Source: Lutibacter sp.
GTDB lineage: Bacteria > Bacteroidota > Bacteroidia > Flavobacteriales > Flavobacteriaceae
DNA length: 64,000 bases
Assembly: GCF_041555395.1 (NCBI RefSeq)
Contig: NZ_JBFFKM010000008.1
Location: 936 to 64,935 of the forward strand
Direction: 5' to 3'
The position numbers were made by a program, and so were the translations under genes. Below the pieces are notes generated by a model. It was not told the DNA's origin, made no database searches, and saw nothing but the letters and a program-made list of their open reading frames with translations. Shown here piece after piece: positions 13,710 to 17,834 of the stretch (position 1 is its first letter; the number at the start of each line of letters is the position of its first letter).

Positions 13710-15463
13710 AACACTTTATAAATGGGTAGTTTTAAATGTGCATCTTCATAATAAGGAGAATTTTTGTACACAAAATCCAACTGTGCTTCTGGGTTTTCTG
13801 CAAAATCTTTATCTGCTTTCATTTTTTGATTCAGTAGACTTCTTAAAGTCGGATTTTCTTGTAACAACTTTTCTGCAATATCTTCAAAAACATAGGATGA
13901 AAAGTGTTCTTTTTGCGCTAATACGGTATCGAAAAAATTCCAGTTAAAGAAGGAATCCGTTGCTTCAGCTTCTAAGGTTTCTATAATATAACGAACACCA
14001 TTTTGTTGGACAGGAATATAAATATCTCCCTTATTAAATAACACATTTTTGGTTTCAGCTGAAACGGTGGTATTAAAATGTGGATAATGTCCTTCAAAAG
14101 GTTTTGTATTTGTTTTGAAATCTTTAATATGTTGTTCTTCAACAGTTAACATTGTGTCCTTTTTAAAAGAAATATATTCAATATTGTTATCTTCTAACCG
14201 TTCCACAACTTTCCACCATCCTTGTTTTAAAATATAGCCTTTCGGAATTTGAATTTCATTTGAAGGGATATAATTATTGAAATATTTTACAGGTTTTATG
14301 TAGGGTTTTGTTCTGTCATAAAACAAACGTTTGCCATTGGTTACTTTACTGTCAATATAACTTCCGTCGTAGCCCTCGAATTGCAGTGTTGAATAGTTGT
14401 TTTTATCAAGTTCAAAAGAAATGGGATAGGTTTTTTTTGCTAAAATATTTGCAACAGCATTGTTGCGAAGTTCTTTAATTTCTGCACCTTTTTCAATGGT
14501 AAAATCAATCACAGATTCTAATAAACTGTAGGTTTCTTCAACACGTTGCTTGTAGGGTTTTAACATATGGGTTTCCACCATCATTCCCAGGGTGTTGAAT
14601 AAAGTGGTGTAACCTGTCGAATATCTCGGACTGTCGAAAAACTGGCTGAAACCGGTTTCAGGCGTTGTTCTCCAAACATTCACATAAGGTGTAATGATAA
14701 TATCTTTTTTTAGCAATGAAGCTTCTATATTGGGTCTCATTTCATTTTCAATAAAATCACCTAAGTCATTTCCTAAATTATTGTGTTGGGTAAATAAATG
14801 CGTAATTCCGTATTGATAATCGGCGCCATTGCTTACATGGGTGTCAATAAAAATATCAGGTTTGATCAAATGAAAAATTTTTGCAAATGCTTTGGCGTTT
14901 TTTGTGTCGGCTTTGATAAAATCCCGATTTAAATCAAAATTTTGGGCATTTCCTCGAAATCCATATTCCTTCGGACCGTTTTGGTTTGCACGTGAGTGAC
15001 TGCTTCTGTTTAAAGCACCGCCAATATTGTAAATTGGGATAATAGCGATTATCATATTTTTTAATCGCGGAATCCTGTTTTTATCCTGAACCAGATCTCT
15101 CAACAACATCATAGAAGCATCAACACCATCAGATTCTCCTGGATGAATGGCGTTGTTGATTAAAATAATATTTTTTTTACGGAGGTGAATATTATTAAAG
15201 TCGAATTCTTTTGAAGTATTAAAAACAAGCAGATACAAGGGGAATCCGCTGTCTGTTTCGCCAAATTCCAACATAGAAATTTCGGGATAAGCAGCGGCCA
15301 ATTCTTTGTAAAAGGTGATGGTTTCTTGGTAAGTGGAAGTTTCTGCGCCCTTTGATTTTTCAAATGTAGTCGTAAAATCTTTCAGTGTTTTTTGCGCTGA
15401 AATTGTACAAGAAAATAACGTGAATAACCCTAAAAAAAGTAATTTTTTAAAGTCCATTCTCAT
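13706..15463 (-). CDS. M14 family zinc carboxypeptidase, secreted
   Basis: Signal peptide, IHPGE, NLNRDF-like (DLNRDF), IDTHVSNG; start set at 15463 (ATGA overlap with coaD stop). Confidence 0.85.
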   Translation of the reverse strand: MRMDFKKLLFLGLFTLFSCTISAQKTLKDFTTTFEKSKGAETSTYQETITFYKELAAAYPEISMLEFGETDSGFPLYLLVFNTSKEFDFNNIHLRKKNIILINNAIHPGESDGVDASMMLLRDLVQDKNRIPRLKNMIIAIIPIYNIGGALNRSSHSRANQNGPKEYGFRGNAQNFDLNRDFIKADTKNAKAFAKIFHLIKPDIFIDTHVSNGADYQYGITHLFTQHNNLGNDLGDFIENEMRPNIEASLLKKDIIITPYVNVWRTTPETGFSQFFDSPRYSTGYTTLFNTLGMMVETHMLKPYKQRVEETYSLLESVIDFTIEKGAEIKELRNNAVANILAKKTYPISFELDKNNYSTLQFEGYDGSYIDSKVTNGKRLFYDRTKPYIKPVKYFNNYIPSNEIQIPKGYILKQGWWKVVERLEDNNIEYISFKKDTMLTVEEQHIKDFKTNTKPFEGHYPHFNTTVSAETKNVLFNKGDIYIPVQQNGVRYIIETLEAEATDSFFNWNFFDTVLAQKEHFSSYVFEDIAEKLLQENPTLRSLLNQKMKADKDFAENPEAQLDFVYKNSPYYEDAHLKLPIYKVF

Positions 15464-15918
15464 AATTTTTTTGAAACACTCTCCGGAACCAAGCAAGAAA
15501 TATCTCCGCCATTTTTTAAAACATCGCGCACAATGCTTGAGCTTATAAAGGAAGTGTCGGCCGAGGTTAATAAAAAAACCGTTTCAACAGTTGATAATTT
15601 TCTGTTGGTTTGGGCAATTGCTTTTTCAAATTCAAAATCAGCCGGATTTCGCAAGCCTCTTAGAATAAAATGTATGTTTAATTTTTTACAGAAATCGATG
15701 GTTAAGCCAGAATACGTTTCAACCTTTATTTTAGGTTCATTGGCATAATGTTTTTTGATAAAATTGATGCGGTCTTCAAGAGAAAACAGGTAGGTTTTAT
15801 CGGTATTTACGCCAACAGCAATTATAATTTCACTAAATAGGGGCAAAGCCCTGTTAATAATATCAACGTGACCTAATGTAATTGGATCAAAGGATCCTGG
15901 AAAAATTGCTTTTTTCAT
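15460..15918 (-). CDS. coaD: Pantetheine-phosphate adenylyltransferase
   Basis: FPGSFDPITLGHVDII, RGLRNPADFEFE, ISSSIVR. Confidence 0.97.
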   Translation of the reverse strand: MKKAIFPGSFDPITLGHVDIINRALPLFSEIIIAVGVNTDKTYLFSLEDRINFIKKHYANEPKIKVETYSGLTIDFCKKLNIHFILRGLRNPADFEFEKAIAQTNRKLSTVETVFLLTSADTSFISSSIVRDVLKNGGDISCLVPESVSKKL

Positions 15919-16006
15919 CTGTTTAAATTTTATTTTTTAGCGGCAACAGATGCTGTTCGCCAATAATAATTCCTTTATGTGTCAAAATTTGTAATGCTCG
16001 TTTCAT
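15913..16006 (-). mobile_element. Putative 88-bp start-codon insertion element, copy 1 (with ATGAAA flanking repeats)
   Basis: About 93% identical to 16981-17074; ATGAAA at both ends, 88 bp apart; removal restores a ddl-stop/coaD-start ATGA overlap. Confidence 0.55.
15923..16006 (-). CDS. Putative 27-aa peptide MKRALQILTHKGIIIGEQHLLPLKNKI
   Basis: ATG overlaps ddl TGA (ATGA); TAA lies 4 nt before coaD ATG. Confidence 0.4.
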   Translation of the reverse strand: MKRALQILTHKGIIIGEQHLLPLKNKI

Positions 16007-16986
16007 GAGTTTTTGTTTAAAGCCATTTCAATGGCGTTGTGAAAAATTTCCTCTAAAGTAATGCCCGCAGCTTCCGCTTGTTGGGGAATTAAACTAGCAG
16101 ATGTTAACCCAGGTACCGTATTCAATTCCAGGAAATAAGGCTCGCCATTTACCAAAATATATTCGGAACGTGAAAACCCACTCATGTTTAGAATTTGATA
16201 GACATGAGAAGCTGTTTTCTCCAATTTTTTATGAATTTCAGGGGAGATTCTGGCAGGCGTAATTTCCTGGGATTTTCCCAAATACTTTGCGTCGTAATCA
16301 AAAAACTCGTTTTCTGATACAATTTCTGTCATGGGCAGCACTTTAATTTTTCCTTTGTACTCTATAACGCCAATGGTTATTTCAGGTCCGTCTAAAAATT
16401 CTTCTATTAAAATCTGGGAGTCTTCTTTAAAAGCTTTTTCTATTGCAGGAATCATTTCCGAAGTTGTTTTTGCTTTGGAAATTCCAAAACTGGAACCTGC
16501 ATTGTTGGGTTTTACAAAACAAGGCAAACCCACTTTGGCAATTATTTCTTCCACTTTAATATTATCACCTTTATTAAGGAAGTAAGATTTTGCAGTTTTT
16601 ATGCCGTATTGTTTCACCACACTTAGACAATCTCTTTTGTTAAAGGCTAAGGCCATTTGGTAAAATGGCGCTGATGTGTGTTTAAGCCCAATCAATTCAA
16701 AATATGCCAAAATAGTTCCGTCTTCGCCTGGATGCCCGTGAATGGCGTTAAAAACACAGTCGAAATTAATTTTTTCGCCATTAATTTTAGTAGAAAAATC
16801 GTGTTTGTTTATGGGAAATTCATTTTCAAGATCGTCAACAAGCACCCATTTATCTTTAAGAATATGAACTTTGTAGGTGTTGTATTTTTCTTTTGAGATA
16901 TTTTGATAGACAACTTGGCCACTTTTTAAAGAGATTTCAACTTCCGAGGAGTATCCGCCCATAATTATGGCAATATTTTTTTTCAT
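16003..16986 (-). CDS. ddl: D-alanine--D-alanine ligase
   Basis: GGYSSEVEISLKSG, HGHPGEDG, VKPNNAGSSFGI, FFDYDAKY, ELNTVPGLT. Confidence 0.97.
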   Translation of the reverse strand: MKKNIAIIMGGYSSEVEISLKSGQVVYQNISKEKYNTYKVHILKDKWVLVDDLENEFPINKHDFSTKINGEKINFDCVFNAIHGHPGEDGTILAYFELIGLKHTSAPFYQMALAFNKRDCLSVVKQYGIKTAKSYFLNKGDNIKVEEIIAKVGLPCFVKPNNAGSSFGISKAKTTSEMIPAIEKAFKEDSQILIEEFLDGPEITIGVIEYKGKIKVLPMTEIVSENEFFDYDAKYLGKSQEITPARISPEIHKKLEKTASHVYQILNMSGFSRSEYILVNGEPYFLELNTVPGLTSASLIPQQAEAAGITLEEIFHNAIEMALNKNS

Positions 16987-17074
16987 CTGTTTAAATTTTA
17001 TTTTTTAGCAGTAACAGCTGCTGTTCGCCAATAATCATTCCTTTGTGTATCAAAATTTGTTATGCTCGTTTCAT
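16981..17074 (-). mobile_element. Putative 88-bp start-codon insertion element, copy 2 (ORF broken by TAA at codon 5)
   Basis: 7 mismatches to copy 1 over 97 bp; ATGAAA at 17074-17069 and 16986-16981. Confidence 0.55.
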
Positions 17075-17097
17075 TTTATGTTTACTAAGTTGAAATA

Positions 17098-17105
17098 CAA
17101 ACTTA
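17098..17105 (-). promoter_or_regulatory. -7 element (TAAGTTTG) for ddl-coaD-M14 operon
   Basis: CAAACTTA on + strand. Confidence 0.6.
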
Positions 17106-17119
17106 CATATTAAAAGCTT

Positions 17120-17148
17120 AAAGTTGAAAGTTTGAAAGTTGAAAGTTG
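17120..17148. repeat. Heptamer tandem repeat (AAAGTTG) x4
   Basis: AAAGTTG AAAGTTTG AAAGTTG AAAGTTG; nearby ATTAAACA x2 at 17181-17196. Confidence 0.8.
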
Positions 17149-17205
17149 AAAAGAAAATTGATTAATTAGGTAATAAGTCCATTAAACAATTAAACAATAA
17201 AAAAG

Positions 17206-17213
17206 TATCTTTG
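17206..17213 (+). promoter_or_regulatory. -7 element (TATCTTTG) for PASTA-rluD-cat operon
   Basis: Exact TAnnTTTG 24 nt before ATG at 17238. Confidence 0.65.
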
Positions 17214-17237
17214 CACAATATCAAAAAAAACGGGAAT

Positions 17238-17834
17238 ATGAGTTTAATTCAATTTATAAAATCTAAAGTATTTGTTAAGCAGTTGCTAATTGCTTTTGCA
17301 GTATTATTTGCATTGGTTTTTGTGATGGTGATGTGGTTAAATATATCCACCAATCACAATCAAAAAATTGAAGTTCCCAACTTGGAGAAAATGAGTTTAA
17401 CCAAAGTTGAAAATACGCTGGATGAGCTGGATTTGAACTGGGAGGTTATAGACTCTGCCAGTTATAATGCGAATTATCCGAAGAAATCAGTCATTGAGCA
17501 AAGTCCGGAAGCTGGAGATTTTGTGAAAGAAAACAGGAAAATATATTTAACATTGAATCCCTCAGGATATAAAGACGTTGAAATACCCGATTTTTACGGC
17601 AAAACAAAAAGACAGGCTACTTCACAATTAACAGCCATAGGTTTCAGAATAAGCGCAGAGGAAATTTATGTTAATGATATTGCGAAAGATGTCGTGAGAG
17701 GTCTAATATATAATGGAAAGGAATTAAAAACGGGTGATAAAATTCCACAAGATTCAGAGCTTATCCTAAAATTAGGAGATGGAGATGGTGGCGATCAGCA
17801 AATAGATAATTCTGAACAAGAGAATATAGAATGA
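17238..17834 (+). CDS. PASTA domain-containing membrane protein
   Basis: N-terminal TM, IEVPNLEKMSL...VIEQSPEAG and VEIPDFYGKTKRQA repeats. Confidence 0.88.
   Translation: MSLIQFIKSKVFVKQLLIAFAVLFALVFVMVMWLNISTNHNQKIEVPNLEKMSLTKVENTLDELDLNWEVIDSASYNANYPKKSVIEQSPEAGDFVKENRKIYLTLNPSGYKDVEIPDFYGKTKRQATSQLTAIGFRISAEEIYVNDIAKDVVRGLIYNGKELKTGDKIPQDSELILKLGDGDGGDQQIDNSEQENIE

What the first reader, a model, noticed from the sequence alone, without database searches (positions are those of the whole stretch)
15913..17074. 88-bp unit at the start codons of two consecutive genes (ddl, coaD), each bounded by ATGAAA direct repeats
Seen: 15910-16006 and 16978-17074 differ at 7 of 97 positions. On the coding strand each reads ATGAAA-cgagca...aaaaaataaaatttaaacag-ATGAAA, with the second ATG being the start of coaD or ddl; the spacing is 88 bp in both. 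Deleting copy 1 fuses the ddl TGA with the coaD ATG in a normal ATGA overlap. Deleting copy 2 puts the ddl ATG right after the short promoter leader. There are no terminal inverted repeats and no transposase nearby. The 3' end supplies an A-rich translation-initiation region like that before rplL. Inference: a small non-autonomous element that targets ATGAAA start codons and regenerates a working start, so it can sit inside essential operons.
Basis: partly seen in the sequence, partly recalled or inferred. Interest (0 to 1): 0.8.

Follow-up and report, generated by a model that had tools for sequence, protein, structure and literature searches.

The report
Mini mobile element targeting start codons
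The two look-alike 88-base stretches in front of coaD and ddl are copies of a tiny gene-less mobile element, widespread in Flavobacteriales, that inserts exactly on ATGAAA start codons and leaves the gene an intact start; the enzyme that moves it is unknown.

Summary
Window 15910-16006 and 16978-17074 are 93% identical, and each is an 82-nt unit bracketed by ATGAAA. They are 2 of 37 copies in this Lutibacter genome, all in one orientation. 28 of 34 independent sites sit exactly on a gene start (p=4e-23 against all ATGAAA sites). Close relatives have precise empty sites at both loci. A covariance model finds the same ATGAAA-bracketed unit in 126 of 300 other Flavobacteriaceae genera and in four more Flavobacteriales families. 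It is not in Rfam, and I found no published description. The unit has no terminal inverted repeats and no conserved ORF. An internal CATNTG is complementary to the 3' junction CAN|ATG, and N covaries (C:G 22, G:C 18, plus A:T and T:A cases). Rare variant copies suggest the truly shared core is ATGA, with a strong preference for AA after it. The mobilising enzyme was not identified. Y1/IS200, TnpB, IS110 and small GIY-YIG nucleases were each tested and none is specifically linked. There is no replication-strand bias. My preferred mechanism is inferred: trans-mobilised, junction-pairing insertion at ATGA, with loss by slippage between the repeats.

The parts
15913..16006 (-). Copy 1 of the element with both bracketing hexamers (94 nt), at the ddl-coaD junction
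   Evidence: cmsearch 110 bits; the site is empty in L041, L044, L047 and L057
16001..16006 (-). 5' ATGAAA of copy 1: the original coaD start position, its TGA doubling as the ddl stop (ATGA overlap)
   Evidence: empty-site comparison
15913..15918 (-). 3' ATGAAA of copy 1: the working coaD start codon plus Lys codon
   Evidence: ORF 15460-15918; MKKAIFPGSFDPITLGH, 152 codons
15945..15952 (-). Internal arm CATCTGTT of helix H2 (copy 1)
   Evidence: present in the minimum-energy fold of copy 1
15916..15923 (-). Terminal arm AACAGATG of helix H2 (copy 1), including the coaD ATG
   Evidence: 90% and 84% of cells paired; N:N' covaries; 0 of 500 shuffles reach the observed score
16981..17074 (-). 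Copy 2 of the element with both hexamers (94 nt), between the ddl promoter and ddl
   Evidence: 111.6 bits; the site is empty in L040, L041, L044-L048 and others, and filled with an orthologous copy in L043
17069..17074 (-). 5' ATGAAA of copy 2: the original ddl start position behind the native short leader
16981..16986 (-). 3' ATGAAA of copy 2: the working ddl start codon
   Evidence: ORF 16003-16986; MKKNIAIIMGGYSSE, 327 codons
17013..17020 (-). Internal arm of H2 in copy 2, in the CAGCTGTT subtype (G opposite the A of ATG)
   Evidence: 12 copies carry this mismatch subtype; H2 is absent from the minimum-energy fold of copy 2
16984..16991 (-). Terminal arm AACAGATG of H2 in copy 2, including the ddl ATG
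17098..17105 (-). TAAGTTTG, matching the Bacteroidetes -7 promoter box TAnnTTTG, 23 nt upstream of the 5' ATGAAA. It is the ddl promoter that now transcribes copy 2 as an extended leader. The promoter consensus is from my own knowledge.
   Evidence: Read directly; conserved in all relatives, empty or filled

Best explanation
SHOWN. The two units are copies of a non-autonomous, non-coding mobile element with 82-90 nt of unique sequence. It integrates in one fixed orientation at ATGA, strongly preferring ATGAAA, and in these AT-rich genomes that is mostly a gene's Met-Lys start. After integration the gene still begins with ATGAAA. It is now preceded by the element's A-rich 3' segment, which provides A at -6, -12 and -13. 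A second ATGAAA is left behind the native leader, opens only a short reading frame that is not conserved, and decays. Because the start is rebuilt, copies are tolerated in front of essential genes and inside operons (ddl, coaD, ackA, fabF, dapA, dapD, lpxD, coaE). Some junctions are hit repeatedly. INFERRED (about 40%). Movement is in trans by an enzyme not encoded next to the copies. It acts on a single-stranded or locally melted form in which the conserved internal segment GCGAA-N3-CATNTG pairs with the 3' junction CAN|ATG. The same CAT can pair with the ATG of a new target, which would explain the fixed orientation and the ATG specificity. INFERRED (about 60%). Copies are lost by slippage or recombination between the flanking direct repeats. 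This restores the empty site, or when the crossover is offset it leaves 2-3 nt of element terminus as a footprint.
For: Family and orientation: 37 copies, all ATGAAA...ATGAAA with period 88. Start-codon association: 28 of 34 sites, p=4e-23 against all 5674 ATGAAA sites and p=1.4e-6 against the 1330 sites that are starts or non-coding. Mobility: exact 88-bp filled/empty polymorphism at both window loci and at pta-ackA. At least 3 copy subtypes occupy each of the ddl-coaD and pta-ackA junctions. Filled sites are confined to one 12-taxon clade with 100/100 support. Tandem arrays share the hexamer. Breadth: 126 of 300 other genera plus four other families, always ATGAAA-bracketed and on long ORFs. 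Pairing: H2 is 90% paired with 4 covarying pairs, 0 of 500 shuffles. Across genera N:N' is CG 22, GC 18, UA 1, UG 1; score 0.150 against 0.046; slid controls 14-39% paired. Non-coding: stops at codon 3-6 in most subfamilies, and variation at first and second codon positions. Decay of the 5' copy: GTG in this genome against ATG in L211, while native ackA starts with ATG. Footprint: L044 and L057 differ from sister L047 only at the bases flanking ATGAAA, converted to ...ACAG|ATGAAA|CGAGCA. Translation-initiation fit.
Against: No mobilising enzyme was found, so transposition itself is inferred from population patterns and not observed. H2 is thermodynamically marginal (alifold -0.36 kcal/mol; z-scores -0.07 to -0.57). 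A 12-copy subfamily (CAGCTG, including copy 2) carries a mismatch opposite the A of ATG. Covariation rests mainly on one position. Nothing in the element pairs with the AAA part of the target. Evidence on what is duplicated is thin and mixed: positions 5 and 6 do not co-vary in 4 copies, position 1 co-varies in 1 copy, and position 5 co-varies in 1 old copy. The footprint needs two insertion/excision cycles or a conversion event.
Confidence: 0.75

Rival explanations
1. It is a PATE: a gene-less derivative of an IS200/IS605-type element, moved as single-stranded DNA by a Y1 HUH transposase (TnpA or a RAYT). It would insert 3' of the tetranucleotide ATGA, with the internal CAT(NTG) acting like the guide sequences of IS608.
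For: Fixed orientation, no TIRs, a roughly 4-nt core target, and internal-to-junction base pairing resembling IS608 guide/cleavage-site pairing. In Lutibacter, 12 of 17 element-bearing genomes have Y1 against 0 of 8 element-free (p=0.0016). Across 301 genomes the odds ratio is 2.7, rising to 3.9 at 10 or more copies.
Against: This genome has 37 copies and no Y1 or TnpB. 58 of 127 element-bearing genomes lack Y1. IS110, used as a control, gives the same odds ratio of 2.65, so the association looks like mobilome richness. Every Y1 element examined (L120-L148, L178-L186) has unrelated ends and hairpins and unrelated insertion sites (TTTATT|GGTCTC...). There are no strong subterminal hairpins. There is no replication-strand bias: 22 of 33 against a 62% baseline, and 4 co-oriented against 8 head-on in the complete genome G209.
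Confidence: 0.15
2. It is a non-autonomous passenger of an IS110/IS1111-family recombinase, whose bridge or seek RNA recognises the ATGAAA target and the element's joined ends. An earlier agent of this scan proposed this for a related repeat.
For: IS110-family elements insert site- and orientation-specifically, lack TIRs, and share only a short core with the target. IS110 co-occurs with the element at an odds ratio of 2.65.
Against: There is no IS110 in this genome or in its congener G163. The odds ratio falls to 1.5 in genomes with 10 or more copies, and 15 of those 27 lack IS110. The conserved target is only 4-6 nt, far shorter than bridge-RNA targets. An 88-bp double-stranded circle is a poor recombinase substrate. 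The last two points are from my own knowledge.
Confidence: 0.05
3. The unit is primarily a cis-acting translational device: a leader that hides the start codon in helix H2 and relays ribosomes through a short upstream ORF. It would be kept by host selection, with spread secondary.
For: It is always sense-oriented and transcribed as a 5' leader. H2 includes the AUG, and its loop is the A-rich initiation region. In copy 1 a 27-codon ORF starts in the ddl stop and ends 4 nt before coaD. An in-frame internal ATG gives 13-15-codon ORFs ending 4-20 nt before the gene in many copies. This resembles MIRUs.
Against: The downstream genes are functionally unrelated. ORFs are not conserved in length or frame, and the 5' ORF stops at codon 3-6 in most subfamilies. 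Codon positions 1 and 2 vary as much as position 3. The helix is too weak to block initiation on its own. Filled and empty alleles of the same essential genes coexist among close relatives, so the unit is dispensable.
Confidence: 0.1
4. There is no dedicated enzyme. Copies spread by microhomology-mediated template switching or short-patch recombination at ATGAAA plus A-rich flanks, and are lost the same way.
For: No enzyme was found. Tandem copies share private substitutions, which points to local duplication. The footprints fit slippage. The element's ends resemble ordinary gene starts.
Against: The unit boundaries are exact in thousands of copies across an order. Orientation is strict. The internal motif GCGAA and the N:N' pair are conserved with covariation, which implies selection for a recognition function. 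Six-nucleotide microhomology is not known to drive dispersed copying at this rate (my own knowledge).
Confidence: 0.05
5. The two copies are a one-off local duplication, or a small protein gene (MKRALQILTHKGIIIGEQHLLPLKNKI).
For: Only the local pair and the open 27-codon frame in copy 1.
Against: There are 37 copies here and thousands elsewhere. Copy 2 and 12 or more other copies have a stop at codon 5, and the sister family has a stop at codon 3.
Confidence: 0.01

Closest known systems
Neisseria REP2 repeats and Borrelia IR-A/IR-B (reviewed in PMC3184786)
   Same: Dispersed repeats of about 120-180 bp without TIRs, lying immediately upstream of unrelated genes, that carry the translation-initiation region and the ATG of the downstream gene. 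Their mechanism of proliferation is unknown.
   Different: There is no sequence similarity and the phylum is different. REP2 also carries a promoter and an SD-type RBS. No specific hexamer target, no bracketing direct repeat and no filled/empty evidence of exact start-codon insertion is described for REP2.
Mycobacterial interspersed repetitive units (MIRUs; PMC3184786 citing Supply et al. 1997)
   Same: Units of 40-100 bp inside operons, co-transcribed, with short ORFs whose ends overlap the neighbouring genes. They have filled/empty sites and short flanking direct repeats. Copy 1 at ddl-coaD looks exactly like this.
   Different: MIRUs are GC-rich with imperfect TIRs and usually occur as variable-number tandem repeats. 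The overlapping ORF is characteristic there, whereas here it is incidental. No start-codon target is reported for MIRUs.
IS200/IS605 elements (IS608, ISDra2) and their PATE derivatives
   Same: No TIRs, orientation-specific insertion next to a 4-5-nt target, and recognition of cleavage sites by pairing with internal guide bases (my own knowledge, and the abstract of PMC6006769).
   Different: No Y1 enzyme in this genome, no subterminal hairpins, no strand bias, and the flanking repeat is present at both ends.
MITEs (e.g. Correia/NEMIS, Chunjie, MITEAba12)
   Same: Small, non-autonomous, multi-copy, tolerated close to or inside operons, with filled/empty polymorphism.
   Different: The defining TIRs are absent, no parent IS shares the ends, and insertion is strictly one-way into an asymmetric target.
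Ssn (GIY-YIG) nucleases with NTS/SRM hairpin repeats (PMC11893778), and the start-codon GIY-YIG mini-elements reported by earlier agents of this scan in CPR bacteria
   Same: Abundant short repeats tied to a tiny site-specific single-strand nuclease. The CPR elements are also reported to rebuild start codons.
   Different: Here the single small GIY-YIG gene has no element in its flanks, and such genes occur equally in element-free congeners. No gene-carrying long form was found.

Membership tests
MITE | Terminal inverted repeats matching those of a parent IS | tested here: not met
   No inverted repeat at the ends. Only a 7-nt AT-only subterminal match in Lutibacter, and it is not conserved across genera.
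MITE | Target-site duplication of fixed length | tested here: inconclusive
   ATGAAA is at both ends, but positions 5 and 6 do not co-vary (C65b, C12b, L209, L210). Position 1 co-varies once (L168). The best fit is a 4-nt ATGA core.
MITE | Small, non-coding, multi-copy, with filled and empty sites | tested here: met
IS200/IS605-derived PATE | Y1 HUH transposase available in the genome | tested here: not met
   None in G000, and none in 58 of 127 element-bearing genomes.
IS200/IS605-derived PATE | Subterminal imperfect hairpins at both ends, shared with an autonomous element | tested here: not met
   The local hairpin H1 has no covariation support. The Y1 elements examined have unrelated ends.
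IS200/IS605-derived PATE | Insertion biased to the lagging-strand template | tested here: not met
   22 of 33 against a 62% baseline, p=0.72. In G209, 4 co-oriented against 8 head-on.
IS200/IS605-derived PATE | Short asymmetric target 5' of the left end, with guide-to-cleavage-site pairing | tested here: inconclusive
   The ATGA core and the CATNTG:CANATG covariation are compatible with this feature, but cleavage positions are unknown.
IS110/IS1111 passenger | DEDD recombinase with bridge/seek RNA in the genome | tested here: not met
   No PF01548 hit in G000 or G163, and absent from 15 of the 27 genomes with 10 or more copies.
REP2 / IR-A-like start-supplying repeats | TIR-less repeat directly upstream of genes that contributes the initiation region and ATG | tested here: met
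   This is a functional resemblance only; there is no sequence homology.
REP2 / IR-A-like start-supplying repeats | Carries its own promoter | not tested
   Only a near-match to the -7 box (AAATTTTG) inside Lutibacter copies was noted.
MIRU | ORF within the unit overlapping the stop and start of the flanking genes | tested here: inconclusive
   True for copy 1. Not true for copy 2 or for most copies.
Any Rfam family (riboswitch, ribozyme, leader) | Match to a curated covariance model | tested here: not met
   No hit at E<=1 over window 15700-17300.
Ssn/GIY-YIG-associated repeat | Cognate small GIY-YIG gene flanked by the repeat and co-distributed with it | tested here: not met

The most novel reading that the evidence does not exclude
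This is a previously unrecognised class of prokaryotic transposition. An order-wide family of roughly 85-nt elements carries its own internal guide (GCGAA-N3-CATNTG), which base-pairs with the start codon of the target and with its own 3' end. The enzyme that moves it would be a yet-unknown, possibly housekeeping or widely conserved, Flavobacteriales protein and not any catalogued transposase. That would make start codons themselves a niche for selfish DNA, and would give a natural, minimal, sequence-programmable insertion system.
Probability: 0.25. Interest if true: 0.9.

Novelty: new variant of a known kind. Interest (0 to 1): 0.75.

Why it matters
Small non-autonomous repeats are known, but one that lands precisely on start codons, rebuilds them, and has colonised essential genes and operon junctions across an entire bacterial order is unusual. 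Six literature searches and Rfam turned up no description of it. It matters in five ways. (1) Genome annotation: the duplicated ATGAAA creates false upstream starts and spurious small ORFs in hundreds of Flavobacteriales genomes. (2) Gene expression in SD-less Bacteroidota: thousands of natural "leader swaps" form a ready-made experiment on what an initiation region needs. (3) Mobile-DNA biology: the covarying internal/junction pairing, without any catalogued transposase, points to a recognition mechanism that is not yet understood. (4) Strain typing: filled/empty and tandem-copy polymorphism among close relatives could be used as MIRU-VNTR is. (5) If the guide idea holds, it is a very small programmable insertion module.

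Tried and rejected
Local duplication or small-protein gene: rejected.

Known RNA family: none.

Y1/IS200/RAYT partner: examined in about 30 loci from 12 genomes. The ends and targets are unrelated, and the gene is absent from this genome.

TnpB: absent from the genus except one genome.

IS110: absent here, with only a generic co-occurrence.

GIY-YIG/Ssn: not co-distributed, and the flanks are clean.

A multi-copy repeat I first took for an IS (CAGAAAAAGATCATCAGACTAG): it has no transposase ORF, lies on short repeat-ended contigs that look like rRNA-operon fragments (not verified), and flanks the GIY-YIG gene.

Split copies with cargo (an autonomous form): none in this genome.

Phage or plasmid carriage: no match.

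Local hairpin H1 as the functional structure: no covariation.

Peptide-level conservation of the internal ORF: rejected from alignment A2.

Extended target beyond the hexamer: none seen in the flanks.

5' TTG/GTG variants as evidence that the 3' ATG is element-borne: rejected for ackA, whose native start is ATG.

Full report
OBSERVATION. The repeat is real. Window 15910-16006 and 16978-17074 are 97 nt long and 93% identical. On the minus strand each reads ATGAAA-[82 nt]-ATGAAA. The second ATG is the start of coaD (ORF 15460-15918) or of ddl (ORF 16003-16986). The first ATGAAA of copy 1 overlaps the ddl stop as ATGA. Copy 1 contains an open 27-codon frame, and copy 2 has a stop at codon 5.

IT IS A DISPERSED FAMILY. 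The window's genome is a 2.73-Mb Lutibacter draft with 33.8% G+C. It holds 37 full-length copies at 83-100% identity, plus tandem arrays in which neighbours share one hexamer at a period of 88. Every copy has the same orientation relative to its bracketing ATGAAA. Of 34 independent sites, 28 have the 3' ATG opening a long ORF. The genes are unrelated housekeeping genes: fabF, dapA, dapD, ackA, lpxD, coaE, xth, leuB, ddl and coaD. Only 555 of the genome's 5674 ATGAAA sites (9.8%) are gene starts, giving p=4e-23. Suppose every insertion inside a coding region is lost. The enrichment over the remaining 1330 sites is still p=1.4e-6. About 5% of ATGAAA-start genes are occupied. One copy sits at a gene's end (C7:59487), so the target is the sequence and not the start codon as such.

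IT HAS MOVED. Named relatives fetched with the Ddl protein show exact filled/empty polymorphism. L041, L047, L044 and L057 are empty at both sites. L042 and L043 are filled at both. L040, L045, L046, L048 and L065 are filled only at the ddl-coaD junction. On a ddl tree all filled sites fall in one 12-taxon clade with 100/100 support. The ddl-coaD junction carries at least three different copy subtypes. The window's sister taxon L040 lacks the upstream-of-ddl copy that the window and L043 share. L040 and L043 have identical leaders that differ by exactly the 88 bp. The pta-ackA junction behaves the same way. It has many empty alleles (…TTTTAA|ATGAAAATA), at least three copy types, and one tandem of two families. 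These junctions are hot spots hit repeatedly.

AN APPARENT FOOTPRINT. The empty alleles of L044 and L057 differ from their sister L047 only at the bases flanking the hexamer. AAAAAC-TC-ATGAAA-AAA-GCA has become AAAAAC-AG-ATGAAA-CGA-GCA, which is exactly the element's last and first bases. Offset crossovers between the imperfect repeats AAAC-NN-ATGAAA and ATGAAA-NNA-GCA would give each half. Both together need two insertion/excision cycles or a conversion by the joined ends. This is inference.

THE FAMILY IS ORDER-WIDE. Within the genus, 17 of 24 other Lutibacter genomes carry dozens of copies. This genome also holds an older sister family with the same architecture. I built a covariance model from both families. 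It gives full-length hits of 60-83 bits in 126 of 300 other Flavobacteriaceae genera, one genome per genus, often reaching the scoring cap. It also gives weaker hits (42-58 bits) in four other Flavobacteriales families. In about 25 genera read by eye, every copy is ATGAAA-bracketed and the 3' ATG almost always opens a long ORF. Rfam 15 has no match. Plasmid and phage collections have none. Six full-text searches found no description (and the reviews read). Other agents of this scan had met the same family in other genomes and disagreed about the enzyme. I treated those notes as leads and tested them.

ANATOMY. Four features are conserved across all subfamilies. These are the 5' end ATGAAA-YGAGC(C)AT, an internal (A)ATGATTAAT-NGCGAA, a hexamer CATNTG, and an A-rich stretch ending CAN-ATGAAA. 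There are no terminal inverted repeats. The unit is not coding. The frame opened by the 5' ATG stops at codon 3-6 in most subfamilies. The internal ATG-initiated frame varies at first and second codon positions as much as at third.

The one structural signal is that CATNTG is the reverse complement of the junction CAN|ATG. On 39 sequences the 8-bp helix H2 is 90% paired, has four pairs with double-sided changes, and is reached by 0 of 500 shuffles; slid controls are 26-41% paired. On 43 distinct cross-genus sequences the N:N' pair is C:G 22, G:C 18, U:A 1, U:G 1 and other 1. The covariation score is 0.150 against 0.046 for shuffles, again 0 of 500. A:T and T:A cases come from this genome's variants. 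The competing local hairpin H1 has no covariation support.

The helix is weak. The alifold energy is -0.36 kcal/mol. Whole-unit fold z-scores are -0.07 to -0.57. A 12-copy subfamily that includes copy 2 has a mismatch opposite the A of ATG. So the pairing probably matters inside a protein complex or only transiently, and not as a stable hairpin.

WHAT IS SHARED BY THE TWO ENDS. Pattern scans over 301 genomes show the 3' hexamer is almost invariably ATGAA. Only one true copy has a non-ATG codon there, and it has TTGAAA at both ends. Only two copies have a non-A at position 5, and both read 5' ATGAAA / 3' ATGAC(A/C). Two copies in this genome differ at position 6 in the same way. One old copy has ATGAG at both ends. 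The simplest reading is a shared ATGA core, with the following AA at the 5' side belonging to the element, and a strong target preference for ATGA-A-A (position 6 is A in 32 of 34 sites, p=1e-4). Variation in the 5' hexamer (TTG, GTG, ATC, ATA) is decay of a now redundant start. ackA natively starts with ATG, and a close relative's orthologous copy still has ATG where this genome has GTG.

THE ENZYME: FOUR CANDIDATES TESTED, NONE SPECIFIC.

(1) Y1 HUH transposases. In the genus, 12 of 17 element-bearing genomes have one and 0 of 8 element-free genomes do (p=0.0016). Across 301 genomes the odds ratio is 2.7, rising to 3.9 at 10 or more copies. However, this genome has none, and 58 of 127 carriers have none. 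Every Y1 element inspected, including the multi-copy active ones, has unrelated ends and insertion sites.

(2) TnpB. Essentially absent.

(3) IS110. Absent from this genome. The odds ratio of 2.65 falls to 1.5 in copy-rich genomes, so both associations look like mobilome-richness confounding. Seven of the 27 richest genomes have neither Y1 nor IS110.

(4) Small GIY-YIG nucleases. Present in carriers and non-carriers alike, and the only one in this genome has clean flanks.

No split copy with cargo exists in this genome. Replication-strand bias, the hallmark of IS608-type single-strand insertion, is absent. By local GC skew, 22 of 33 copies are positive against a 62% baseline. In the complete genome G209 the origin lies near 2.35 Mb and the terminus near 0.1-0.4 Mb by sampled skew, and there are 4 co-oriented and 8 head-on copies.

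HOW IT MOST LIKELY WORKS. Shown: orientation-specific integration at ATGA(AA), retention of a working start, an element-supplied leader, decay of the upstream copy, repeated hits at operon junctions, and loss that restores the empty site. The leader carries A at -6, -12 and -13, three of the positive determinants measured in F. johnsoniae. It has C at -3, which the CAN arm requires (PMC6847099).

Inferred: trans-mobilisation by an unidentified enzyme, using pairing of the internal CATNTG with CAN|ATG at the 3' junction and of its CAT with the target ATG (about 40%). A Y1/HUH enzyme is the best catalogued candidate (about 15%), and IS110 follows at about 5%. An RNA-level role for the helix, in start-codon masking or ribosome relay, is possible but poorly supported (about 10%). 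Enzyme-free spread is unlikely (about 5%).

COMPARISON WITH KNOWN SYSTEMS AND NOVELTY. In what it does, the element is closest to Neisseria REP2 and Borrelia IR-A/B, which are TIR-less repeats that donate the initiation region and ATG. It is also close to MIRUs, which are intra-operon units overlapping the neighbouring genes. In how it may move, it is closest to IS200/IS605 PATEs. It fails the defining tests for MITE (TIRs), PATE (Y1 enzyme, hairpins, strand bias) and IS110 passenger (recombinase). I file it as a new variant of the known kind "small non-autonomous bacterial insertion elements". Its distinctive traits are start-codon targeting with start regeneration, a covarying guide-like pairing, and order-wide spread.

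LIMITS. So there is no read-level evidence for ongoing excision, transcription or RNA processing.

Noticed in passing
G000 C12:6832-6952, C21:33039-33152; L040:2481-2615; L043:2472-2577; L065; L149:1589-1803: Some copies carry a nested GC-rich insert (CCTGCCTGCCGG..GGCAGG, or (GGCA)n up to 9 units) at one fixed point, between GCGAAC and AGCATCTG. It is a second tiny hairpin element or a slippage-prone extension inside the first element.
   Followed up: partly
L044 and L057 (about 2470-2500), ddl-coaD junction: These 'empty' alleles have both flanks of ATGAAA converted to the element's terminal bases (ACAG|ATGAAA|CGAGCA) compared with sister L047. It looks like an excision footprint. It also changes CoaD residue 3 from Lys to Arg.
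   Followed up: partly
L216, about 370-420 (pta-ackA junction): An 18-bp tandem duplication (TTTTAAATGAAAATATTA) lies exactly at the hot-spot start codon in an otherwise empty allele. Its origin is unexplained.
   Followed up: no
window 17106-17151: A run of GTTGAAA/GTTTGAAA heptamer-like repeats lies just upstream of the ddl promoter. Relatives have variable numbers of TTTCAAA/TTTTCAAA units at the same place, so this is a microsatellite-like variable tract next to an essential gene's promoter.
   Followed up: no
G000 C91:1842-2168 and its flanks; also C17, C69, C73, C94, C98, C104, C121: A multi-copy 55-nt repeat (TTTTACAGAAAAAGATCATCAGACTAG...TTTTTTATCA) lies on short repeat-ended contigs that may be rRNA-operon fragments (not verified), and also directly downstream of the genome's only small GIY-YIG nuclease gene. 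It could be that nuclease's cognate (Ssn-type) repeat.
   Followed up: partly
L121:1900-2080 (G003:C12): An IS200-like element has inserted immediately upstream of the 5' ATGAAA of a sister-family copy on a lipoprotein gene. A 13-nt TTAATATTTTATT occurs at both IS boundaries.
   Followed up: partly
G000 C7:59390-59487: One copy sits at the 3' end of a gene (...LLMK*). The gene's last codons now read MKRA*. This shows that ATGAAA, and not start-codon function, is what is targeted.
   Followed up: partly
G000 C12:39141-39231: In this copy the 3' start codon has become ATT while the 5' hexamer is TTGAAA, in front of a 76-codon yidD-like ORF. The gene may now initiate elsewhere or be impaired.
   Followed up: no
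G000 C51:18979-19194 and C80:1-116: A tandem array of at least 4 identical copies breaks the assembly, with one contig ending and another beginning inside the array. Such arrays probably fragment many Flavobacteriales draft genomes.
   Followed up: partly
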